From the human T2T-CHM13v2.0 reference genome, Homo sapiens: a stretch of 64,000 nt of DNA. This document shows, in pieces, positions 6,231-56,500 of this stretch. The stretch lies in assembly GCF_009914755.1 (NCBI RefSeq), contig NC_060947.1; one strand, written 5' to 3'. The translations under genes were made by a program, and so were the position numbers. The notes under the pieces are model-generated. The model had not been told where the DNA came from, searched no databases, and saw nothing but the letters and a program-made list of their open reading frames with translations. Position 1 is the stretch's first letter. The number at the start of each line of letters is the position of its first letter.

Positions 6231-6871
<641 letters not shown>

Positions 6872-6920
6872 CTAATGCACTATTTTAATAAATAACAATT
6901 AATGCAAAAATCTGTGATGA

Positions 6921-7498
6921 GGACCAGGCACTGTGGCTCAGGCCTGTAATCCCAGCAGTTTGGGAGGCCGAGGCAGGCAAATTGCTTGAGCCCAGGAGTT
7001 TGAGACTAGCCTGGGCAACACGGCGAAACCTTATCTCTACACACAAAAAAAATACAAAAATTAGCCAGGTGTGGTGGCCTGTGCCTGCAGTCCCAGCTAC
7101 TCAGGGGGCTGACACGGGAGGATGGCTTGAACCCAGGAAGCAAATGTTGCAGAGAGCTGAAATCGCACTGCTGCACTCCAACCTGGGCCACAGAGAGAGA
7201 CTCTGTCTCAAGACAAAACAAAAAAACCAGAAAAACAAAAAACCAACCAAACAAACAAAAAAAAACTATGATGAACAAATTATCAAAATTTTAAATAAAG
7301 GAAGGATCTAGCACTGTAGTTGCATGACAGTACCTCATTCTCCTTACCCCAATTTCAATAAAATTTTATTTATAAAAACAGACCACAGCTGGGTGTGGTG
7401 GCTCACTCCTATAATCCCAGCAACTCAGGAGGCTGAGATGGGAGGATTGCTTGGGTGACAGATCCCCCACTCAACAAAAACAACAACAACAACAAAAA
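6921..7498 (+). mobile_element. Alu (about 6921-7264) and Alu monomer fragment (about 7388-7498)
   Basis: Alu consensus similarity, A-rich tails. Confidence 0.85.
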
Positions 7499-18483: not shown

Positions 18484-20409
18484 CTTCCTTCAGTCGTTTC
18501 GGAATGAGGCAGAGAAAGGACAAGGTCTCCTGTTTAGCTTAGACTTGAATGTCATGTGGAACTGGAAGGAGACAGGGACCCAGTTGCCCTACTGGCTTTT
18601 TTCTTTATCCCCTTATCCCACAGCAGCAGTGAGGTATCTGGGAGTCCTTGGGCTCTGGAGGAAATGTCAAAGTTGTTGGAAAAGCCCCAAGCCCAGCAAA
18701 TCTGCCCACTCCCTGCAGGACTGCTGCTTTCACTTTCACTCTTGCCCATGGCCTAGGGACTGGAATGGCCTCAGCCATCAGCTGGGTGGCCTCTGCCAAG
18801 GCTCTTGAAACCAGTCCTACCGCTCACACTAGTGGTCGTGCTTTCTAGGGTGGCCCTCTGCCCCACATGGCATCCCCTTAGCTTCTGTCTTCTGGTCCGC
18901 CAATTATGGCAGCTACCCACACCCCTATGGGTATGACAAGCTGTGGCCTAGCCTCCTCAATAAGGAGAGGGAGGAGAGCCTGTGGCAGAAGTGAGTGAGC
19001 TCACCTGCCTGCAGAGTCCCTGACATCTTACTTCTGTCTATTCACATTTCCTCTCTGCCTGCCTTGTGTTTTCACCCTTTCAATCCATCTAGCTGATGGA
19101 TCCCTTATGCATCCTACCTACTCCCTTACATTCTTACTCTTCATCACGTCCCTTCATAAGTTGCCCTGGTCTCCTTCTTCTCCCTTTCACCTTCTGCTGG
19201 AGCACACATGGCCAAACACCTCATACTCACTGGAATTTCCTTGTCTTGTGTTATCATTAAAGAAAATTATATATAATATATATGTTATATATTATATATG
19301 TTAATATATTAATATATATTGTATATAATATATATATTATGTAATAAAAATTGTATTTTTTAGTGATGAAGTCTCGCTACCTTGCCCAAGCTGGTCTGGA
19401 ACTCCTGGCCTCAAGCGATCTTCTCACCTCAGCCTCCCAAGTAGCTGGGATTAGAGAGCATGTTTTTATTCCCCACTACACTGAGCTCCTGGAAGGAAGG
19501 ACCTCTGTTTTATTCATCCCAGAATTCTAGTGCTGACAAAGATTCTCTTATTGACCGAATTTTACTCAGGTTCCCTTGAGCTCTTTTTCAACTAGGCCTG
19601 GAGTTTTGGATTTCTGAGTTTGTCTCTGCATTGTCCGATTTCAGCAAGGAAATTGCTAAGTCCTGCTAAGTCTATTTAGTCATCCCCCATATCCAAGCAC
19701 TCTCAATATCTAATCTGGTTCCTCATCCTCCACCATCTCCCAGGTGATGTTTGATCGCCCTGGTGCCTTCAGCAAAAATAATGTTAGGTCGGTTTGGCCC
19801 AAATCTTCCATTATGCCTGATGTTTCCTCTTAGTTAATTTCCATCCATTGACTCCCACCTTGTTCCTTGGCTCTAAATTCCCACTTGCCCACATTGTATT
19901 TTAGCTGATCTCAATCTATCTCCCCCATTGCAAGATGCCATTGCAGTGATTCCTATACTTATCTTGATATTTCCCCCTTGAACACAGTCTTTCTCACCAT
20001 CTTTAACAAGTGTCATTTAAAAAAATTGAACAGTAATGATGCTGTGACTTTTATAGGATCAGATTCATCATTGGACTCCTGGACCTATCACTGCGGACCT
20101 CAAATGTGCACCTTTTAAGCCCTTTCCTTCACTCCTGACTGATTGATTTGGGATCCACTGCTAAGTCAGACTTTTGAACCATTGTTCCAGGCAAACTTCT
20201 GTTAAAGCTGGTAAGGATTGATTTGATTCTTAAGATTCTGAGTATACTCTCTGAAGCAGGTTAGAGTTCCAGGCTTGTTTTGAAAGGTATCTCCTAGGCT
20301 GGATGGTTTCCTTCCTGGATCTCTGTCTTGAGTGGGGATTATTCTCTGGCTCCCTGGGCTGAAAGCTTTTCTTTCTGGCTTTCTATTTTGAGTGGGAATT
20401 ATTCATTGA

Positions 20410-39100: not shown

Positions 39101-39515
39101 AAGTCTGAGTCACCTCAGACCATTGCCTTTTATGCTTGCTCTGTCATACCTTGTGGAAATGTAAAAGATCAATGACAGCTAGCCTTTTCACACAATTATT
39201 TATGCCTCGGCCCTCTAATTGACACAGTTACCCCTAGCACTCATCGTTGTGATCACCTGCAGCCAAGACGCTGATTTTCTGCTCCTATAGCCTGGCAACC
39301 TTGTGGTACATGGGACTACGTCCTTTAAACTACCCAGGAGCAAAGTTGGACTTCCATGAAAAAGGTTTGTGCAGATCTAAAACCTCTCATCTATTTCACT
39401 AAAAGGACTTCCCCTTCTAACTGTCACCCTTACCAATGTAACCCTGTCCTCTCTATCACCACCTCCACCTGTCTTTAACTAACTCTAGACCTGTCCTTAA
39501 TTGCTTTTATGGTAT
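36156..39515 (+). mobile_element. HERV-I/HERVIP10-type element: LTR10-family 5' LTR 36156-36741, degenerate PBS-Ile, deleted internal region, integrase C-terminus and env start; truncated at 39515
   Basis: LTR start TGTGAAAAGTAAAGTAGAGGTTCCTCTTCAAAGAC; TGGTGGAAATCCGTAC after the LTR; EGPY-like..LLTTETA..AEKGWTHHTQVK at about 38860-38950; ACSVIPCG env motif at about 39130. Confidence 0.75.
37041..37197 (+). repeat. About 40-bp tandem repeat x4 in the ERV leader
   Basis: Unit AAGAGGTGAGAAATCCCCATTGGGGGGGTTGAACCTCAAA. Confidence 0.9.
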
Positions 39516-40943
39516 TGGAATAGGAATTAAAAGAAATTAAAGAATGTGTAAGGAGAAACTCAGTTGTATGTAAGAAAACCCAATTCCCCCTGAGAAAGAG
39601 AAAGAGTTGGAGTCCTTTAAAAATTAACTGCCTGTTTTTCTGTGGCTAGTGAGCCTTATCTCTCCTCCTTTCCCAGACATTGTGAAGACCCTGTTTCTCT
39701 AGCTGTGCAGCTGCAAGGTCACTAGACAGATAAACTCAAGTTGTAAAACATGTTTTTCCTTGAAAAGTAAGAAATGCTGTAATGCATTTCTCAATTAATT
39801 AAATAACTGTCTTTGTTTCTCGCTTCTGTAATATGCTTCCCCCTGCACAGATCTCCACCCACCCTACAAAATGCTTAAAAGGTAACTTAACTCTTTGTTC
39901 TGGGCTCAGTCCTTTGGGCTGAGTACTGGGCCGGTGCACCTAAATAATAAATATCTTCCTGAACCCCATTTGTCTCTCTGATTCCTTAAAAAATCCCGCA
40001 ACATTTCTGGGGACTCGCCTGGGATTGGAGACGACAGATTTACTGTCTCCTTTGCCTGTGGGGACTAGAGCCCAAGGACCGGGGGAGACCCGGCATCCAA
40101 GGTGTATCACAGGGGAGCTTCACCCAGACAGAGATAGGCTCTCCCCGCATCCCAGTGGCCTGCCCAGCAGTGCAATGGAACCGGGGATGGGGCTGCAGGA
40201 AGATACCAGCACTTCAGGAACCGCTGTAAGGAGCAAGGGCCCAAGGCATGAAAGCCCATCCCATAAGGATGAAGGGGAGCTTGGTCACCTCCCAGGGACC
40301 AACCAGTAATCCAACCTAGAGTGGCTGGGGGCGGCAGGAGTGGCTTGCCAATTTGGATGAACCTCGTGTCCCCACTAACAGTGGAACTGGGAAAAGGGAG
40401 AAAATGGGCCGATAGAGTGGCAAGTGCAGCAAGGTACAGCTTGCTGGCAGGGTGGCAAGAGTGGCTTGCCATCCCAACTGGGAGTGTGTGGGTGCATGTG
40501 AACCTACCTGGGACATGAGAGAGGCTCATTTTGTCCGATGAGGAGTCCTGGGGTAGGAGTGGTCTGTGTATGTGTGTGAATGTGGGAGCCTAACTAGGCT
40601 CACCTGGGACACGAGAGAGGCTTGTTTCATCCGATGAGGAGTCCTGGTGCAGGGGAGGTGTGTGAAAGTGTGAGAAAGAGACGGTCTCGGGAGAGGCCAA
40701 TGTGGGGAGTGATGTGGGGAGGCACAGATCCCTCAGCGTGGGCTGTGTGCTCCGAGGCAAGTGTGGGGGAAATCAGACCTAGGACGCTGCATACGGCTGA
40801 TCGAACCAGCTTCACAGCCACAGCAGGCTGTGACAGGGGAAGGCACATTCCTGGCTAAGCAGTGTCCAAAACTCCCGTAATAGGACCTGGTCTGGTGGAC
40901 CCAAGGGTGAAAGTGAAAGGGAAAGTGCACCACAAGGGAGGAA

Positions 40944-46729: not shown

Positions 46730-48984
46730 ATGTGGATACAATTTATAAGCCTAGCTATAATTCTGTCAATACTGGTTATTATGTTATGTTATTACTGCAA
46801 ATGCTGCAAATGTCTATGCCCAGAGGAAGGTTTGCCATGCCCATGTGTAGTGTAAGCATGTTTCTATTATATACACTAATGTTCTTACCATTTCTGCCTA
46901 TACTAAAAAAGGAGAAATCTCTAGAAAGATGCCCATACTGTGTACACACTACCTGGGTAAGAAACACCATAGTTAAAACTCTACTGTACCATACCTACTA
47001 TGAATGTACAGGAACCAAGTTAGGAATCTGCACATACAACCAGACCACCTATTCATTCTGTGACCCAGGAAATAATCAGCTACATGTAGGTTATGACCCT
47101 AAACTCTTACCTTATGAATTCTGGTTTGAGGTACATATTAAATCAGAGGGAGAAAAAGAAGGAGAGCTTATAGCTCGAACCAAAGAAGCCCCTCCCTCCT
47201 ATAAAAGGCGTAGTTCCTTGTACTTTGATGCCTGCCATGCCGCATATGTTCATAATCTTAAAAAAAACAGAAGCAGCCTGCAATGGTTTAACACAAGAGA
47301 GGCTGAGCAGGAACAGCCCTAAACATCTGTATGGAGAACCACAAATCGGATGCCCGGACCGTAACATTCAGTGGTCTATGCTAACACAGCTCCAACACTT
47401 ATATTCAGGATGGACTGCTCTGCTAAGTAGTATGTCAGTCAAACTAAATTGTAAGACAAGGACATGCAATTCTTTAAATTTTACTATCTTAAAGCCAGAG
47501 CTACCTTTTTGGTCTACAGGGCAGGCAGCACTATTATGAGTTGATAGACAAGAAGCAGGCCTTGGAGTTCCACTACTGATTGTCAAAAAGACTAGAAGGA
47601 CTCAAATGTGTCCAATCCCCCAATTCTGGGTCCATAAGTCATTCTATAAGCATTTTGATCAGCCAGTGCCTGAGCTTCCCCCATCACCCAAAAACATATT
47701 TGCTCAACTAGCTGAAAACATAACTGGCAGCTTAGGAATTTCCTCATGCTATGTATGTGGAGGAACTAATATGGGTGACCAGTGGCCATGGGAGGCAAAG
47801 GAATTAATGCCACAAGGTAACTTCACTTTGCCTAACCCTGCCAGTGAACCAACAGCCTCAGCCAGTGTTTGGTTGTTAAAAACCTCCGTAATTAAAAAGT
47901 ACTGTATCACCCGATGGGGAAAGGCTTTCACAGAGGCAGCAGGAGAAACAACCTGCCTAGGGCAACAGCATTATGATGAGACTAAAAACAAAACTCTACG
48001 GAGAAATGCCCAGAATGACTCCTACTTACCAGGTCCAAACCCTTTCTCTTCATTCTCTACTCTAAGCCACACTTGGAATCAGCTAGAGGCTCCAAATGCT
48101 TGGAAGGCATCCTCTGGCCTATAATGGATCTGTGGAGCATGGGTACATCAGCAACTGCCGGCTAAATGGACAGGGGCATGTGTGTTAGGAACAATCAAGC
48201 CATCCTTCTTTCTAATTCCTCTAAAGCAAGAGGAACTCTTAGGATATCCAGTTTATGATGAAAATAAAAGAAGAACTAGAAGAAGCATAATCACAAAAAT
48301 AGACACAAATGTCAAAAAGATGTGGACATAGGAGACTGAAAAGATAATGAATGGTCTCCTGAAAGAATCATTAAATATTATAAGCCAGCTATCTGGGTGC
48401 AAGACGGTTCATGGGGATATTGCACCCCAATCTATATGCTCAACTGCATCATAAGGTTGTAGGTAGTCCTTGAAATTATAACCAATGAAACACCAAGGGC
48501 ACTAGGTTTATTGGCAATACAAGCAACACAAATAAGAAATGCTATACATCAAAATAGATGAGCTTTGGATTACCTCTTAGCCTCAGAAGGAGGAGTATGT
48601 AGAAAATTTAATTTAACCAACTGTTGCCTAGAAATCGATGATAATGGCCAAGCTATTATGGAAATCACTGCTAGAATGGGCGAGTTGGCCCATGTTCTAG
48701 TTCAGACTTGATCCGGGTGGTCCCTGGATTCCTTGTTTGGAGGATGGTTCTCAGCCTTTGGAGGATTCAAAACCCTCATTGGTAGGTTCTTGCTTATTCT
48801 TGGCAACTGCCTCATCCTCCCTTGCCTTTTACCCCTGCTTACTAGGAGTATTCAGTCAACTACAGAGGCAATAGTAACCCGACACACTACCGCACAGTTG
48901 ATGGCATTAACCAAATATCAGCCACTGCCAGTAGAAGCAGCTCAGCTCCGCGAAGAGGTGGCAAGTAGTGGTGCTTTCTATTAA
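46730..48984 (+). pseudogene. ERV3-like env (disrupted)
   Basis: [28 protein letters not shown]; furin site RRTRR at about 48270; [19 protein letters not shown] with CX6CC; TM segment. Confidence 0.9.
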
Positions 48985-50618
48985 CACCTTTGTTATAAAA
49001 AGCACCAAAGGGGGGAATGGAAATAGGAATTAAAAGAAATTAAAGAATATGTAAGCAGAAACTCAGTCGTATGTAAGAAAACCCAATTCCCCTGAGAAAG
49101 AGAAAGAGTTGGAGTCCTTTAAAAATTAACTGCCTGTTTTTCTGTGGCTAGTGAGCCTTATCTCTCCTCCTTTCCCAGGCATTGTGAAGACCCTGTTTCC
49201 CTAGCTGTGCAGCTGCAAGTTCACTAGACAGATAAACTCAAGTCATAAAACATGTTTTTCCTTGAAAACTAAGAAATGATGTAATGCATGTCTCAATTAA
49301 TTGAATAACTGTCTCTGTTTCTCACTTCTGCAATATGCTTCCCCCTGCCCCACGAAATGCTTAAAAAGTAACTTAACTCTTTGTTCAGGGCTCAGTTCTT
49401 TGGATCTTAATCTTACTGGGCCGGTGCACCTAAATAATAAATATCCTCCTGAACCCCATCAGTCTCTCTGATTCCTTATCAATCCCACTACACTATGAGA
49501 ACCTACATCTCAATGGTCAGGCATTGATCAGACATTGTGGCAATCCCCACATTTCTTGCCACAGGGCCCTGTCAACACAGCAGCCAACAAAGGTTTACTG
49601 AGTGAAGTACATATAGGTACAAAAAGACTTATAGAACCATTATTTTCACAATAAAACATCTTACCCCTGTTGCCCACTGCCAGAGAATAGCCATCATCTC
49701 TCTCCTTTCAAGGACCCTTGTAAATAAACACATACAAACTGACAGAAGCAGGAAATGTGAGGCAGCATGTTTAATCATCTCCATCTATTCGAAAACCCCA
49801 TGAGATAGTTATCATTGTTATTCCCATTTTACAGATGACAAAACTAACACAAACGGAGAGTGATCAAGTGAGATTAGCCAGCTAGCAACAGGAAGCAAAG
49901 CAAAATTTCAGATTCCAGCAGTTTAGCTCCAGGAAGAGCCAGCCTGACGAGGAGACATCTTAGTTAAAATCAGAAAGAGGCTGTTAGATCGTCATCCCTT
50001 CCCATCTCTTTGAACGTGAATTGGTCAAATATTTTCCAGCTGTTTTCTTACCCATCCTCTGGGAACATGAGGTATGATGCGTGCACTCATCCATTAGGAT
50101 CAGTCGTTGGGGTGACTGGAACCCACAGTACATGTAGGGGCCCACAAACTAGTTTAATTTCTTATATAAAATAAGGTTGATGAAAAGGGTCATTGTGCAA
50201 GCAAAAATAGAATGAGTCACTCAAACGATGGAGGATAGGTTCTATGGTTAAAACCTACTCTCTATATTCAGGACATTAACAAGTCCTGAAGTATCTACAA
50301 AACACTTCTTAAAGGAAGAATCTTAGAGCACTCAATCTGTCCTGGCTGTGATTATTTGACAATAAATAAAATGTATTTATTCCTAAACAAGAGCTCAGAA
50401 AGATATCTGTAGAAAAGGGCAGGAGTAGAGGAAAAGAGGGCTATGCAGCAGCAGGAAAGAAGGGAAATCACTGCAGGTCCACAGCACCAGCTCAGCACAG
50501 AAGGTAAGTGCGCATTTGTAATGGGTCTGTAGCCAGAGACATAGCAGAAGCTGCGCTATCCACAGTCACAACCAAAGGCAAAGGAAGGATGCCCTGCAAT
50601 TTTAGAAATCTTGGCTGC

Positions 50619-51215
50619 AGCTGGGAACGGTGGCTCACGCCTGTAATCCCGGCACTTTGGGAGGCCGAGGTGGGTGGATCACTTGGGGCCAGCAGTTCCA
50701 GACCAGCCCAGCAAACATGGTGAAACCCTGTCTCTACTAAAAATACAATAATTACCCAGGTGTGCTGGTGCGCACCTGTAGTTCCAGGTACTCGGGAGGC
50801 TGAGGCACTCCTGAGTACCTGCACAATACATGCAAACACCCACCCCATCCTACTCCCCGGCCCCCCCGCCCTACTCCCCCCCTCCACCCTACGCCCCCCC
50901 GCCCTACTCCCTCCCCCGCCCTACTCCCCCCACCCCGTCCTACTGCCCCCACTCCAACACGTGCTCTCCCGTGCCCAAGGCAAGGCCAAGCCCCTGAGGC
51001 ATGCGCACCTCAGCAGGCCCAACCCACAGCAAATAGTGGGAAGAGGAAAGGCAAGAGAGGAGGTCTCTAAGTGGATACACTGTTACTGAATCTAGGTACC
51101 CAGAAGATGGAGGTTGTAGTGAGCCCAGATAGTGCCACTGCATTCCAGAGACAGAGCGAGACTGTCTCAAAAAAAAAAAAAAAAAAAAAAAAAGAAAGAA
51201 AGAAAGAAAAGAAAA
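50619..51215 (+). mobile_element. Alu interrupted by a ~290-bp insertion (50808-~51097)
   Basis: Alu runs to GGGAGGCTGAGGCA (50807) and resumes at ACCCAGAAGATGGAGGTTGTAGTGAG through poly-A. Confidence 0.9.
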
Positions 51216-51504
51216 GCAATCTCGGATGCTCTAAGCATCATTGTGCATGTTTCCACCCTTGCACTTTGATGTGGATTCATTACTAAGAATTAATAGTGGA
51301 CTTTCTCAAGGAGTGTGCTGCATTTTTACATAGTGCATTTGCGCAGCCCACAAGCTTTGCAAATCCAGGCCCAAGCTCCTGCTCCTGGAGACCTAGGAAG
51401 CATGGGGCTAGTGCAAAATCTCCCTTATCGCCATAAAATGGGCTTGCACAATTCAGCACAGCAGCTTCCCCCAAGTTCCACACTCACGCATGCCTGTCTA
51501 CAGG

Positions 51505-51860
51505 ACAACGCATGCAAGCACGCACCCCATCCTACTCCCCCTCCCACGCCCTACTCCCCCCTCCCCCACACCCTACTACACCACTTACCCCTCCCCCCCC
51601 ACACCACCAACGCGTGCTCTCCCTCATCCGGGCAAGGCCAAGCCCCTGACGCATGCGCACCTCAGCAGGCCCAACCCACAGCAAATAGCGGGAAGCAGAA
51701 AAGCAAGAGAGGAGGTCTCTAAGTGGATACACTGTTGCTGAGTCTAGACACCAGAAGAACGTTGCAGGCGGCGACTCACAGTTCTAGCACTGCCTAGGAG
51801 AGCGTGGTGGCCCCAGCTCAGAATCTGCAGAAGTGCACAGCTCCATCCACACCACTCAGG
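51505..51860 (+). promoter_or_regulatory. RHOXF2: RHOXF2 proximal promoter/5' UTR: C-rich CCCTACTCCCC repeats, NRF1-like GACGCATGCGCA
   Basis: Position directly upstream of the ATG; CpG retention; CGCATGCGCA at about 51650. Confidence 0.7.
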
Positions 51861-51862
51861 GT

Positions 51863-51941
51863 ATGGAGCCTCCGGACCAGTGTAGCCAGTATATGACCAG
51901 CTTGCTCAGCCCTGCAGTCGACGACGAGAAAGAACTACAGG
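51863..51941 (+). CDS. RHOXF2: RHOXF2 coding exon 1 (MEPPDQCSQYMTSLLSPAVDDEKELQ)
   Basis: Matches the RHOXF2 N-terminus; donor G|GTCAGT. Confidence 0.95.
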
Positions 51942-52126
51942 GTCAGTACCTTGATGGGACACATGCTTTTGCGAACTCAGGAAACCAAGGTTCTCTGGGA
52001 GAGGCGAGTAGACTGGATGATACCCCTGCACTACCACTGCTCTCAGAGTGTAGCCCCTCACCACCTCCTTCCAACACCCTCAGGACCAATGCCTTGATCT
52101 TTCTCTTGGGGTTTCTACTTTTCCAG

Positions 52127-52538
52127 ATATGAATGCTATGGTGCTGTCGCTTACTGAAGAGGTCAAAGAGGAGGAAGAGGATGCACAGCCTGAGCCTGAG
52201 CAAGGCACAGCAGCAGGAGAAAAGTTAAAGTCGGCAGGAGCCCAAGGCGGAGAAGAAAAAGATGGCGGCGGAGAAGAAAAAGATGGCGGCGGCGCCGGAG
52301 TTCCTGGCCACCTATGGGAAGGAGACCTCGAGGGCACCAGCGGCAGCGATGGCAACGTTGAGGACAGCGACCAGAGCGAGAAGGAACCTGGGCAGCAGTA
52401 TTCGCGCCCACAGGGCGCCGTCGGGGGGCTGGAGCCTGGCAACGCGCAGCAGCCCAACGTCCACGCCTTCACCCCATTGCAGCTGCAGGAGCTGGAGCGC
52501 ATTTTCCAACGCGAGCAGTTCCCCAGTGAGTTCCTGCG
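52127..52538 (+). CDS. RHOXF2: RHOXF2 coding exon 2 (DMNAMVLS...FTPLQLQELERIFQREQFPSEFL)
   Basis: ttccag| acceptor, CG|GTAAGC donor; homeodomain helix 1; WEGDLEG/ELERIF variant and position relative to RHOXF1 fit RHOXF2 rather than RHOXF2B (from memory). Confidence 0.95.
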
Positions 52539-52962
52539 GTAAGCCCATTGCTCTGGTTGGCGCGCGGTTTGCAGGGAGGCGGCGTTTGGCTTTCCCGCAG
52601 TCCCTCTCCTACCCTCTCCCCTCCTGAACCAAAACCCATCTGGGGCCTGGTGTTGCTGCCGTCCCCTCCCCGCAGACCCCTGGCACCTAGTGGGTTCTGT
52701 AGTGGGGCTATGCCTATTAGGCATCATGCAGAATTTAAATGAACCAAGTTGGGCAACTTTGGGCTGAGGTCAGTTATGATAAATAACTCCTATCCCAGGC
52801 GAGGCAGAAATAAAGATGAGGAGATTAAGGTTCTGTACAGCAAGTGCAGGGTCGCATTCTGACCTTATTTAAAATTCTGAGAAGTCCGTCGTTCGTCTGG
52901 GTTTCCTTTGGTGTTAATTTTTCTAAGTTTCAAATAGTAAGTTAGAATGTCATTTATATTGA

Positions 52963-53341
<379 letters not shown>

Positions 53342-53469
53342 TGAGGCTCAGCTGGGTGTTACAGAACAGCCTACTGGGTGTGGGGAGTTGGTAGAATAAA
53401 AAAATTAAACACAAGAATGAAACGACACCCACAACTCCAAATGCTGAACACGTGTGGTTTCTTCCATAG

Positions 53470-53515
53470 AAGGAGGCTGGCAAGAAGCATGAATGTGACT
53501 GAACTCGCAGTGCAG
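53470..53515 (+). CDS. RHOXF2: RHOXF2 coding exon 3 (46 nt, (R)RRLARSMNVTELAVQ)
   Basis: catag|AAGGAGG...GTGCAG|gtcagt. Confidence 0.96.
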
Positions 53516-56500
53516 GTCAGTAAACCGAAAAAGCAATCGGGCAGGGGAGCCATTCTAAAACCCGCTTCAGGGCTTGGACACACTTTGACCCAGACATTGC
53601 CATCTTGGTGTTTTTGTGGCCTTTTTCATGTATAGGCAATGAGGTCTGAACTTTGGGATCTTTGTGGCTGGAAAATGCAGTAAGGAAAGCTCAGCTTGTG
53701 GAAATTTCCCATTACCAGAGGGAACATGACAATCCACGGAAAAAAAAATGAGTACTGAACTGTTTCCTTTATTCCTTGTGTATAAAATATATTATACACT
53801 TGAATAAATTACAAATATATAAATATATGTATTCCAAATTACAAATATATATAATATATAACAGTATAAATTAAATATAGCATAATATATAAGATTGAAT
53901 TCCTAGCACTGGTATCCTTTAGGTAGCACTTCCATGTGGAGGCATCCTGGGGTTTTCTGACATGGGGATTATTCGAACTAATGCTCCAAAGAGCTCCATT
54001 AAACTAAACTATTTAATATATTTAAAACCAAGCATAAACTCTTTGGTTAAGAATTTATAAATGTTTAGGCATTGGGGTAAAGGAATAATTCCCAACCAGA
54101 ACGTATGTTTCCTTAAGCTGAGACTGATGGCGGGGGATAGCATAAAGTTCAAGCGCCTGGCCCTCCTACTATTGTTTTTAAGTATTTGGTGAAGCCTTGT
54201 AGAGAGTGGCAGCTCTAAATTTTAATTTTCTGGAATACTTTGATATGGCAGGCTGAAAACATTGCTGACATAGTTGGTTTTGCATTATGGTAGAGATAGC
54301 GAAAAGGCTTGCAACCTTTGCAAGTTTATCTAGAAACCAAAACAAACTACAAGATCAATTTTTCATAAATTTCCACCAACCTAAGGATGGAAGTGTTAGG
54401 CAAGAATTGTATACAGTCACACTCATGGCTTGGGGAAGCTGCCCCCATTCAACTTTTGAAGCTACCAAATGCATCAGTGAATATTTTCTTGATCAATTTC
54501 TAGCATTTAAGAGATTTTTTGTTTCTTCCAGTTTGTTGTACTAACAGGAAGAGATGTGTTTTGTGGAATGTGTTGATAGTGGGGGATGGCTGTCAGGTCA
54601 GGCTAGACTCTTACCTGTGGTAATTTGAAATACCTTTTTATTTATTTGCTCAGGCTGTGATAATAAATTTGTAGGTCAGTGGATCCAAAGGAGTATTTGC
54701 AAAAAAGGAAGAAAAGAAAGAAAAATCGGGATGACCTTAATAGCTTTTCTGCAGAGCTCATGTGTGTGAGTGCAGTGAGGGAACTATGCTGCGGTTCTGT
54801 CAATGGTGGCATGCAGAAAAGCTGCCTGACAAAACGGGGCACTGAGTGTTGGCATCCTGTTGCCCTCCATTTTCTCAGGCAGGCAATGCCAATTTGGGGG
54901 AGATGAAATATTGACGTTTTGGTGAATTGCCTTTCCCCTCCCTGGGTTTACATAGCATTCACTCAATGCAGTTCTGAAGGCAAAAGGACCACTCTCACTC
55001 AGCAAATAAGGAAAAAGGCATGATGTTCTCATCTATTGCCAAACATTTCAGCATGAATATCTCCAAAAATTTTTAATAGATGTTTCCCCCCTCTGTTTTG
55101 TAAAGATAGTAAGGGCTGGTTTATGAAACCGATACGGAGACTAGGGACCTAATGTTGTCCCATAGCACATTTGGCCCACTTTTGGCATTGCTTATGTTTA
55201 TGAACCTTTGACCACAGGTACATTGGAATTGTCTCTAAACAAGCACTATTACGGTAGGCTTAAAATTTAGACTATGTATTCATGAGGGAGAAGGACTCCA
55301 AATAGTAAGATGGGAGAAGGAAATGGGGCATCAAACAGGGAGAAGAGTCCCTTTGTCCCATAAAATTTGCAGTTTGGGAACTTCCAGAAGGATCAAAATA
55401 CAATGGAAATGTCATTAACTAGAAGCTTGGGGGATAGTGTTGTTTAATTGACAGGTTTTATTTTTTGGTCTTTTAACAATTGGCAGGTGTTTGGGGAGTA
55501 GTGTTTTTTGATACCTCCTCCACATTACTACTGAACGTGTTCAGAGTTGCCTATTTGGACACTCCCGCTTTGGGAATGCTGATGAGATTGGGATCTTCTG
55601 CTCGAGTAGTGAGGCTAGATGGCTGAAGGCGTCCCATGGAACTGGGCAACCAAGTCTCTGTCCCATATCCCAGGACTATAGGGAGAACAAAGTGAGCTGA
55701 CCTTGTCCTTAGCCCAGGAAGATTTGGAGGGAGGGATGAGTTGGAGCGTGCAGAATTAGCAATGCTTCCTTTCTCTCAAACTCTCAACTGGGCAAAGCTT
55801 TTTGAGAATTTTTGTGAATTTGGACAACATTTGTGTCCTCCTTCCACAAAGCTTCAAGCTGAAGTGTGAAGAGTGTCCAGGGCTTCAGATACCCTCATTT
55901 CCCAGCAAGACAATCCACAAACTCCCTGGGCCCCCTATAACGAGACTTGCCTTGCAATATACCATCTTTTTAATTCTCAAGGAGTTTCAGAAGATGAATG
56001 ACCCCTTAGAATTTCTTGAAGGAAAGAAAACTTGTTTTAAAATACAATGTACTCTTACCGATTTTTTACTTTACACTGAAGATGGGCTTTTCAAAACGGG
56101 GGCCTCATCTTCTTGGTATGACTTTAAAAGGCACCCCCGCCTTTTTTTCCAAGCTCAGCTTCCCCCACGACCAGGGTGACAGTGGCCTAGTAAGTAGGAG
56201 TTGGTGGGCAGCTGGGTAGCTGATGGTCAAGTATCTGCAAGCAGACATGCCACACATAGCAATACCAGCAGGGATCGAGTCCCACTCATCAGCTACACCT
56301 GCACCCAAGAGTGGAAAAAGTAATATTACAGATAAAAGGAGAGAGACAAAGAAATAAGCCAAGCCAGAGCGTACGTAGCACATACTTGGAGCTCACTAGG
56401 GGAAAGGTGTGGTGGTCACCTTTCTAAGATATTTTAGTAGTAAGGAAGTAGCTTGTCTTGATACACCCGAAAAGGTTAAGGACATAGAGAGTTGCTTGTT

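What the first reader, a model, noticed from the sequence alone, without database searches (positions are those of the whole stretch)
50785..51106. Copy of the RHOXF2 core promoter inserted inside an Alu, with a fold-back junction
Seen: 50823-~51097 duplicates 51505-~51750 (C-rich repeats, GGCAAGGCCAAGCCCCTGA, GCATGCGCACCTCAGCAGGCCCAACCCACAGCAAATAG, GTCTCTAAGTGGATACACTGTT) and replaces about 15 nt of the Alu right arm. The left junction CTCCTGAGTACCTG (50808-50821) is the reverse complement of Alu 50785-50798 with one mismatch; the right junction shares CCAGAAGA microhomology. This pattern fits template switching (MMBIR/FoSTeS or polymerase-theta templated insertion). The result is a second promoter-like cassette about 680 bp upstream of the real one.
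Basis: seen in the sequence. Interest (0 to 1): 0.7.

Follow-up and report, generated by a model that had tools for sequence, protein, structure and literature searches.

The report
Promoter copy pasted into an Alu
A 275-base copy of the RHOXF2 gene's own core promoter sits inside an old Alu repeat about 650 bases upstream of the real promoter; it looks like a fixed scar of error-prone DNA copying, it is identical at RHOXF2 and RHOXF2B, and whether it is active is untested.

Summary
One Alu (50620-51217, with its own target-site duplication) is interrupted after 50807. The interruption holds three pieces: a 14-nt inverted copy of the Alu's bases 50785-50798 (13 of 14 match; the mismatch is at a CpG), one base (50822) that fits no template, and a direct copy (50823-51097, up to 51107) of the RHOXF2 promoter 51505-51747 (up to 51758), i.e. 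-220 to +23/+34 around the annotated start. Between 14 and 24 Alu bases are lost. There is no target duplication and no poly(A). In the whole assembly this sequence occurs only four times: promoter plus insert in the RHOXF2 arm, and the same in the RHOXF2B arm, where the structure is 100% identical. So it is not a repeat family or a local assembly slip, and it predates the last homogenisation of the two arms. About 6% divergence from the donor suggests an age of tens of millions of years. The best reading is a single multi-step templated insertion: a local fold-back, then copying from a template about 680 bp away, then return. Which enzyme did it, and DNA versus RNA template, cannot be settled here. 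Promoter activity is untested and no transcript is annotated there. It is a clean new example of a known kind of mutation. It also matters in practice because RHOXF2/2B is a standard epigenome-editing target.

The parts
50607..50618 (+). Left target-site duplication of the host Alu
   Evidence: A 12-nt direct repeat with 51218-51229, 10 of 12 identical (read). It shows that both Alu halves belong to one insertion.
50620..50807 (+). Host Alu, 5' part (left monomer, A-rich linker, start of right monomer), ending at the break
   Evidence: Aligns to 11 other window Alus. Weak 7SL/SRP match at 50620-50736, E = 6.7e-8, below the gathering score.
50785..50798 (+). Template arm of the fold-back, within the Alu
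   Evidence: I2. It carries a G where 10 of the 11 other window Alus have C at that position, and the inverted copy carries the matching base.
50808..50821 (+). Inverted 14-nt copy of 50785-50798, starting right at the Alu break
   Evidence: 13 of 14 complementary. The mismatch lies opposite the CpG at 50793 (one search lists that CpG). It is the only inverted repeat of this quality in 64 kb that is not simple sequence.
50822..50822 (+). Orphan base between the inverted piece and the promoter copy
   Evidence: It is a C. Continuing the fold-back (complement of 50784) or continuing the donor (51504) would each predict a G (read). It is either untemplated or a later substitution.
50823..51097 (+). 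Direct copy of the RHOXF2 promoter and first bases of exon 1. It contains the C-rich array 50839-50953, GCATGCGCA at 50999-51007, and the start-site equivalent at 51073.
   Evidence: In the ungapped 117 nt (50979-51095 vs 51631-51747) there are 7 differences. Identical blocks of 19, 38 and 34 nt.
51098..51107 (+). Right junction zone that can be assigned either to the donor or to the Alu
   Evidence: It aligns to the Alu columns. Its last 8 nt equal donor 51751-51758.
51108..51217 (+). Host Alu, 3' part and A-rich tail
   Evidence: A-run at 51169-51215.
51218..51229 (+). Right target-site duplication of the host Alu
51505..51758 (+). Donor: the RHOXF2 core promoter and first 34 nt of exon 1 (annotated start at 51725), intact
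   Evidence: plus the annotation supplied with the finding. The homologous RHOXF2B stretch from -186 to +16 is described as a methylation-sensitive promoter in passages of 10.1101/2023.09.26.559662.

Best explanation
This is the fixed scar of one complex templated insertion in the germline of a primate ancestor.

A break or stalled fork arose in the right monomer of an old Alu, 0.7 kb upstream of RHOXF2. The free 3' end first copied 14 nt of its own neighbourhood in reverse-complement (a fold-back, or short template switch). It then moved to a template about 680 bp downstream and copied about 250-285 nt of the RHOXF2 promoter and start site in direct orientation. Finally it rejoined the other Alu end at a short stretch of imperfect homology, with the loss of 14-24 nt of Alu.

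What is shown: the anatomy, the uniqueness in the genome, the presence in both RHOXF2 arms, and the intact donor.

What is inferred:
- That it was a single event.
- The order of the steps.
- That the template was DNA.
- The age, roughly 10-40 million years.
- That the copy is most likely a passenger without an independent promoter role. It is nevertheless a near-duplicate target for anything aimed at the RHOXF2/2B promoter.
For: - One Alu with one TSD flanks the whole insert, so the inner sequence arrived after the Alu.
- The insert is a copy of -220 to +23/+34 of the neighbouring gene. It runs across the annotated start, and the homology ends inside exon 1.
- There is no TSD, no poly(A) and no A-run at the insert ends, and there is a 14-24 nt microdeletion.
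- The 14-nt inverted piece abuts the break exactly, copies bases 10-23 nt away, and carries the same G that only 1 of 11 other window Alus has.
- Genome-wide, the 351-nt query gave 12 matches. Four are the insert and the promoter in each RHOXF2 arm. Six are unrelated C-rich arrays (four on C12, one on C18, one on C20). Two are matches of 33-34 nt to the Alu flank only.
- The 24-nt Alu/fold-back junction occurs only in the two arms, allowing up to 2 mismatches; the reversed-pattern control gave 0.
- The arms are 99.58% identical over 26,276 aligned bases. Over window 48000-54000 they differ at 5 mismatches and 1 gap, none of them in the insert, the fold-back or the promoter.
- Divergence from the donor is 7 of 117, plus 1 of 14 in the fold-back. 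That is younger than the Alu TSD pair (2 of 12).
Against: - No microhomology can be shown at junction 1. The terminal bases of the Alu end do not pair next to the templated stretch; the fold only finds a 2-bp GC:GC pairing with A50807 bulged.
- Junction 2 has an orphan base.
- A tract of about 275 nt is far longer than the polymerase-theta insertions described in PMC4912351 (median 7 bp in their in-vitro system, passage).
- An RNA template is not excluded.
- Only one human assembly and no other primate could be examined, so fixation and age are inferred.
- On 'passenger': the copy keeps 9 CpGs, three CCCCGCCC boxes, the GCATGCGCA palindrome, and 34 nt identical around the start-site equivalent. 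Activity is therefore not excluded.
Confidence: 0.75

Rival explanations
1. RNA-templated patch. A double-strand break in the Alu was filled with a reverse-transcribed piece of an RNA spanning the RHOXF2 promoter, as proposed for class 2 templated sequence insertions.
For: The junction features match the class 2 description in PMC5110952: no TSD, no poly(A), microdeletion, a possibly untemplated base, and an intact donor (passages; anatomy).
Against: The copied stretch starts 220 nt upstream of the only annotated start (annotation supplied with the finding), so it needs an unannotated read-through or upstream RNA. The donor is 680 bp away in the same orientation, which a local DNA template switch explains without further assumptions. 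The inverted 14-mer is copied from DNA next to the break.
Confidence: 0.1
2. Two or more independent events. The promoter copy and the 14-nt inverted repeat arose at different times and only happen to be adjacent.
For: Short template-switch mutations are common in ape genomes (PMC5453318 passages; PMC7954356 seen only in the search listing). An orphan base separates the two pieces.
Against: The inverted piece fills exactly the space between the Alu break and the copy. It is the only inverted repeat of this quality in 64 kb that is not simple sequence. Chance expectation for such a repeat anywhere in the window is about 0.2 by my arithmetic: 64000 positions x 18 loop lengths x 43/4^14.
Confidence: 0.07
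3. The copy is a working distal promoter or enhancer of RHOXF2/RHOXF2B. Its origin is as in the best explanation; only the function differs.
For: The copy spans the segment (-186 to +16) that is treated as the methylation-sensitive promoter in 10.1101/2023.09.26.559662. It keeps 9 CpGs, GCATGCGCA, and 34 identical bases around the start-site equivalent. It has gained three CCCCGCCC boxes against none in the donor. Mouse Rhox5 uses separate distal and proximal promoters (PMC10531175 passage).
Against: No transcript starts there in the annotation supplied. In the 3' part only 2 of the donor's 6 CpGs are kept, with 1 CpG private to the insert. That looks like decay of methylated DNA, although without an outgroup the direction is not certain. 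Identical blocks of 38 and 34 nt are not surprising at 6% divergence (0.94^38 is about 0.1). The copy sits in an Alu, which is normally methylated (general knowledge).
Confidence: 0.12
4. An assembly artefact, an unrecognised repeat family, or a tandem duplication.
For: None was found.
Against: The same structure occurs twice in a telomere-to-telomere assembly, 80 kb apart in inverted arms. There are only four homologous places genome-wide. The flanks of the copy are Alu on both sides and are not repeated next to the donor.
Confidence: 0.01

Closest known systems
Class 2 templated sequence insertion (TSI/TSIP; PMC5110952, passages read)
   Same: A copy of an intact donor is inserted at a break. 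It has no TSD, no poly(A), no L1 cleavage-site signature, and shows a microdeletion and a possibly untemplated base.
   Different: There the donors are described as distant and enriched for transcribed sequence, and an RNA intermediate is favoured. Here the donor is 680 bp away, spans an untranscribed promoter (by the annotation), and is preceded by a local inverted copy.
Short-range template switch mutations (four-point model; PMC5453318, passages read)
   Same: A short fragment from a few bases away is copied in reverse-complement, creating a new hairpin. The 14-mer is a textbook case.
   Different: That model is one switch and an immediate return. The authors say they do not model long-range or successive switches. 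Here a second switch copies about 275 nt in direct orientation before the return.
MMBIR / FoSTeS replicative template switching (primary papers recalled, not read; the names appear in the PMC5453318 passage)
   Same: Serial switches to templates close by, a mix of inverted and direct pieces, and a small loss at the original site.
   Different: Those models were built on kilobase-to-megabase rearrangements with microhomology at each join. Here the scale is 14 + 275 nt, and microhomology is demonstrable, imperfectly, at only one of three joins.
Polymerase-theta end joining with snap-back and in-trans templated insertions (PMC4912351, passages read; PMC2943611 and PMC5728401 seen only in the search listing)
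   Same: A complementary tract copied in cis next to the break, alternation between templated and untemplated synthesis, and a final join at short homology.
   Different: The reported tracts are short (median 7 bp in vitro). A 275-nt tract copied from 680 bp away would be unusual for this enzyme alone.
Mouse Rhox5 distal/proximal promoter pair (PMC10531175, passage read)
   Same: Two promoter-type elements in tandem upstream of a Rhox-family gene.
   Different: The Rhox5 promoters are experimentally defined and independently regulated. Here the upstream element is a recent copy of the downstream one, and its activity is unknown.

Membership tests
Class 2 templated sequence insertion | No target-site duplication around the insert | tested here: met
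   The Alu columns on either side are contiguous apart from 14-24 nt that are lost; nothing is duplicated.
Class 2 templated sequence insertion | No poly(A) tract or polyadenylation signal at the insert end | tested here: met
   The insert ends in the junction zone 51091-51107, which has no A-run.
Class 2 templated sequence insertion | Donor site intact, i.e. a copy and not an excision | tested here: met
   Promoter 51505-51758 is present and continuous with exon 1.
Class 2 templated sequence insertion | Donor distant and transcribed (RNA intermediate) | tested here: inconclusive
   The donor is 652-682 bp away. 220 of its bases lie upstream of the only annotated start. Expression data were not available.
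L1-mediated (class 1) insertion or retrocopy | TSD of 5 bp or more, poly(A) tail, T-rich cleavage site | tested here: not met
   None of the three is present at the insert boundaries. The only TSD and poly(A) belong to the host Alu.
Short-range template switch (four-point model) | A fragment copied in reverse-complement from nearby sequence | tested here: met
   50808-50821 against 50785-50798, 13 of 14.
Short-range template switch (four-point model) | A single switch followed by immediate return | tested here: not met
   The inverted piece is followed by one orphan base and a 275-nt direct copy before the Alu resumes.
MMBIR / FoSTeS | Microhomology at every template switch | tested here: inconclusive
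   Junction 1 has none. Junction 2 has 0-2 nt, depending on the original state of 50822. Junction 3 has 8 nt of present-day identity, but the other window Alus differ there.
MMBIR / FoSTeS | Several templates in close proximity, in mixed orientation | tested here: met
   The templates lie 10-23 nt away (inverted) and 680 bp away (direct).
Polymerase-theta templated insertion | Short templated tracts (a few to tens of nt) from the flanks of the break | tested here: inconclusive
   Met for the 14-mer, not for the 275-nt tract. Compared with the median of 7 bp in PMC4912351.
Alu SINE (host element) | Dimeric 7SL-derived body, A-rich tail, flanking TSD | tested here: met
   Aligns over its whole length to 11 window Alus. 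SRP match at E = 6.7e-8, below gathering. A-run at 51169-51215. TSD 10 of 12.
Functional promoter | Transcription start sites and open or unmethylated chromatin in the expressing tissue | not testable with these tools
   No expression or chromatin data were available. The supplied annotation lists one RHOXF2 transcript, starting at 51725.

The most novel reading that the evidence does not exclude
A single replication or repair error gave RHOXF2 (and later RHOXF2B) a second, working copy of its own methylation-sensitive core promoter. The result would be a distal/proximal promoter pair like that of mouse Rhox5. The copy has extra GC boxes and a larger G-quadruplex-prone array, and it could contribute to germline or cancer-testis expression. 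This would be promoter birth by templated insertion.
Probability: 0.12. Interest if true: 0.65.

Novelty: new member of a known kind. Interest (0 to 1): 0.4.

Why it matters
1. It is an unusually legible natural example of a multi-step templated insertion. Because it landed inside an Alu, both break ends, the lost bases and all three junctions can be read against a known sequence. That makes it a useful case for people who model template switching beyond the single-switch model.

2. It shows one way in which a complete core promoter, start site included, can be duplicated next to its gene without duplicating the gene.

3. It has a practical consequence. RHOXF2/RHOXF2B is a routine target for CRISPR activation and TET- or dCas9-based demethylation work (search listing; passages). 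Of the 57 NGG protospacers in 51505-51760, 15 also have a site in the insert with at most 2 mismatches and a PAM: 3 perfect, 10 with one mismatch, 2 with two. Each locus exists twice. Guides, bisulfite amplicons and short-read methylation or ChIP signal at this promoter can therefore come from four places rather than two.

4. I found no mention of this in print, within these limits. Searches 'RHOXF2 + promoter' gave 99 papers (25 listed) and 'RHOXF2 + Alu' gave 7 papers. Passages from PMC3214919, PMC4349744, PMC8143547 and PMC10531175 do not mention it. Richardson et al. 2014, the main paper on RHOX promoter methylation, is not held and could not be checked.

Tried and rejected
- **Repeat family.** Rejected: only four homologous places in the assembly.
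- **Tandem duplication of a 650-680 bp unit.** Rejected: the sequence flanking the copy is Alu on both sides and is not repeated beside the donor.
- **Copy extends further left than 50823.** MAFFT aligned 50800-50822 to 51483-51504 at roughly 60%. However, 50798-50807 is clearly Alu, and 50808-50821 fits the fold-back at 13 of 14, against about 8 of 14 for the donor. I kept the fold-back reading. The partial similarity may have helped the second switch.
- **Inverted 14-mer from another, antisense Alu.** The antisense Alu in RHOXF2 intron 2 (about 52980-53300) would give 4 mismatches by my reading, and the host Alu gives 1. One other window Alu (at about 29700) has the same 14 bases as the host, so a distant Alu donor is not strictly excluded. 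It is only less economical.
- **Snap-back priming.** The fold offers only a 2-bp GC:GC pairing with a bulged A, which is not convincing.
- **Rfam scan of 49500-52500.** It found only the Alu's SRP similarity and three sub-threshold chance-level hits.
- **Selection on the copy.** The identical blocks are not longer than expected, so no claim is made.
- **Host Alu age.** A crude majority consensus of 10 window Alus gave 40 of 264 non-CpG differences. About ten of these come from insert bases forced into Alu columns, so I use the figure only qualitatively ('old Alu').
- **Richardson et al. 2014** could not be fetched.
- **Not run:** protein tools, structure tools and complex prediction, because the feature is non-coding.

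Full report
**What is there.** Reading 50400-52000 and aligning the host element with 11 other Alus of the window shows one Alu on the + strand. These 11 came from the 14 other Alu places that one search found. I left out two Alus at 6677-7112 and a 67-nt fragment at 19390-19456; a 15th row was a second hit in an Alu already used. The host Alu runs from 50620 to an A-rich tail ending at 51217. It is flanked by a 12-nt target-site duplication, 50607-50618 and 51218-51229, 10 of 12 identical. Its left arm gives the expected weak 7SL/SRP match (E = 6.7e-8, below gathering). The element is interrupted after 50807 and resumes at 51098-51108. In 10 of the 11 other Alus, 14 alignment columns are filled that the host lacks. 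The eleventh has its own deletion there.

**The interruption has three pieces.**

1. 50808-50821 is the reverse complement of 50785-50798 with one mismatch (I2).
   - The mismatch lies opposite the CpG at 50793, so later CpG decay explains it.
   - The template arm has a G where 10 of the 11 other Alus have C, and the inverted piece carries the matching base. This favours the host Alu itself as the template.
2. 50822 is a single C. Continuing the fold-back, or continuing the donor, would each have given G there.
3. 50823-51097 is a direct copy of 51505-51747.
   - The next ten bases (51098-51107) fit both the Alu and the donor; the last eight of them equal 51751-51758.
   - With the annotated RHOXF2 start at 51725, the copy covers -220 to +23, or to +34 if the shared bases are counted.
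   - The start-site equivalent is 51073, which is 652 bp upstream of the real start.

**More than chance.**

- The promoter matched the query at E = 2.6e-54 in the genome search.
- I scanned the window for short-range inverted repeats of 14 nt, at most 1 mismatch, loop 3-20 nt. That gave 45 raw hits, 15 after a low-complexity filter and 7 merged places. Six of the 7 are AT-rich simple sequence, and the seventh is this junction.
- By my arithmetic, about 0.2 such repeats are expected anywhere in 64 kb, and far fewer exactly at a breakpoint.
- The hairpin folds at -15 kcal/mol as DNA, and 0 of 200 shuffles fold as well.

**Not a repeat family, not an artefact.** The assembly that holds the window was searched with 50780-51130 and gave 12 matches.

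- Four are the insert and the promoter in the RHOXF2 arm, and the same two in the RHOXF2B arm. The RHOXF2B insert is 100% identical over 351 nt.
- Six are unrelated C-rich arrays: four on C12, one on C18 and one on C20.
- Two are matches of 33-34 nt to the Alu flanks only.
- The tool warns that its counts for repeats are lower bounds.

The 24-nt Alu/fold-back junction occurs only in the two arms even with 2 mismatches allowed, and the control gave 0. The two arms form an inverted segmental duplication that reaches from window 42313 to beyond 68571. It is 99.58% identical over 26,276 aligned bases. Between 48000 and 54000 the arms differ at 5 mismatches and 1 gap. The nearest differences lie in the Alu's A-tail (51186, 51190), and none fall in the insert, the fold-back or the promoter. 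The event therefore predates the duplication or the last conversion between arms. Niu et al. report no fixed differences between the two human copies and parallel copy-number changes in primates (PMC3214919, passages).

**Age.**

- In the ungapped 117 nt (50979-51095 vs 51631-51747) there are 7 differences. Two of them are at donor CpGs.
- The fold-back adds 1 difference in 14.
- A cluster of differences at 50971-50978 and the C-rich arrays are much more diverged.
- The arrays differ in size: 5.2-6.3 units of 17-19 nt in the insert against 2.3 in the promoter, with 75% identity over their first 65 nt.
- The Alu's own TSD pair differs at 2 of 12, which is consistent with the Alu being older.
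- With a recalled primate neutral rate of about 1e-9 per site per year per lineage, 6% pairwise divergence corresponds to some 25-30 million years. The Poisson range on 8 differences is wide, roughly 10-60 million years. CpG sites inflate the estimate, and gene conversion between copy and donor would deflate it. I therefore state only 'tens of millions of years'. No primate genome was available to test this.

**Mechanism.**

- L1-type insertion is excluded. There is no TSD, no poly(A), and a small deletion instead.
- The features match the 'class 2' templated insertions of PMC5110952 (passages). Those are described as coming from distant, transcribed donors, probably through RNA.
- Here the donor is 652-682 bp away, in the same orientation, and mostly upstream of the only annotated start. 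It is preceded by a copy of DNA lying 10-23 nt from the break.
- This pattern of several nearby templates, one inverted and one direct, followed by a return, is what serial template switching predicts.
- The 14-mer alone is a standard short template switch (PMC5453318, passages) or a polymerase-theta snap-back (PMC4912351, passages).
- The single untemplated-looking base also fits that polymerase's alternation of modes.
- The 275-nt tract is long for it, given the median of 7 bp in their in-vitro joins, and suggests a more processive copying step.
- I could not show microhomology at the first junction. The fold offers only a 2-bp pairing with a bulged base.
- At the second junction, both possible templates predict the same base in place of 50822, which would have given 1-2 nt of overlap.
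- At the third junction, the eight shared bases are present-day identity. The other window Alus differ there at several positions, although two of them have drifted to similar strings. The original overlap was therefore probably shorter or imperfect.
- The sequence cannot decide between replication-based switching, break repair with an ectopic DNA template, and an RNA patch. I rank them in that order.

**Function.**

- The copied segment contains the stretch (-186 to +16, 9 CpGs) that one group uses as the methylation-sensitive RHOXF2B promoter. Targeted demethylation there reactivated the gene 35-fold (10.1101/2023.09.26.559662, passages).
- The copy keeps GCATGCGCA (50999-51007) but loses the CpG immediately before it. 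It keeps 38 and 34 identical bases around that palindrome and around the start-site equivalent.
- The copy has 9 CpGs, as does the donor span.
- The copy has three CCCCGCCC boxes where the donor has none.
- It has 15 C-runs of 3 or more in its first 138 nt, against 9 in the first 106 nt of the donor.
- Calling these motifs NRF1-like, Sp1/KLF-like and G-quadruplex-prone rests on my recall, not on a tool.
- Against activity: no transcript starts there in the supplied annotation.
- Also against activity: in the 3' part the copy keeps only 2 of the donor's 6 CpGs and has 1 of its own. This looks like decay of methylated DNA, but it cannot be polarised without an outgroup.
- The identical blocks are no longer than expected at 6% divergence.
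- I put activity as a distal promoter or enhancer at about 0.12. The parallel with the distal/proximal promoter pair of mouse Rhox5 (PMC10531175, passage) is only an analogy.

**Practical consequence.** Of the 57 NGG protospacers on both strands of 51505-51760, 15 have a site with a PAM and at most 2 mismatches in the insert: 3 perfect, 10 with one mismatch, 2 with two. With two arms, reagents and short reads aimed at 'the' RHOXF2/2B promoter can address four places.

**Literature.**

- 'RHOXF2 + promoter' returned 99 papers, of which 25 were listed.
- 'RHOXF2 + Alu' returned 7 papers.
- 'RHOXF2, RHOXF2B, duplication, primate' returned 6 papers.
- I read passages in PMC3214919, PMC4349744, PMC8143547, PMC10531175 and PMC8339558. 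None mentions a promoter copy or this Alu.
- Richardson et al. 2014 is not held, so a description there cannot be excluded.
- No supplementary files were consulted.

**Verdict.** This is a well-preserved, apparently undescribed instance of a known class of mutation. Its functional weight is unknown and probably small, but it has a real practical bearing on work at this promoter.

Noticed in passing
window 52246-52287: A perfect 21-nt tandem duplication (two identical units) inside RHOXF2 coding exon 2. It is in frame, adding seven residues (D6). Niu et al. mention indel polymorphisms in exon 2 of chimpanzees.
   Followed up: no
window 42313 (inner edge) to beyond 64000; partner at G000:C23:118436001-118462260: The inverted segmental duplication carrying RHOXF2 and RHOXF2B is at least 26.3 kb long and 99.58% identical. 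Its inner boundary is at window 42313. A further 881-nt alignment at 85% covers 39508-40380. The outer boundary was not reached.
   Followed up: partly
L005-L008 (G000:C12:133007668-133008091; C18:58410007-58410118; C20:64113018-64113110): C-rich minisatellite arrays elsewhere in the genome resemble the promoter's C-rich repeat at 72-76% identity. The C12 array lies within about 0.3 Mb of the contig end as I recall its length. This is probably compositional similarity only.
   Followed up: no
window 50971-50978 vs 51624-51630: There is a tight cluster of differences between copy and donor (6 changed bases and 1 indel within 8 nt), next to stretches that are otherwise nearly identical. In the copy the result is a short direct repeat of a 5-nt unit. 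This looks like a separate small slippage or template-switch mutation.
   Followed up: no
window 51140-51150: The host Alu lacks 6 columns near its 3' end that all 10 other full-length window Alus fill. This is an unrelated small deletion.
   Followed up: no
window 50753-50804: A sub-threshold match to the Alu-derived mir-1268 family (26 bits against a gathering score of 83, E = 0.07) ends a few bases before the break. It is expected for Alu sequence and was not pursued.
   Followed up: no
window 51483-51504: The bases just upstream of the donor segment resemble both the start of an Alu and the fold-back piece at about 60% identity. This could be chance, or it could have eased the second template switch.
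   Followed up: partly
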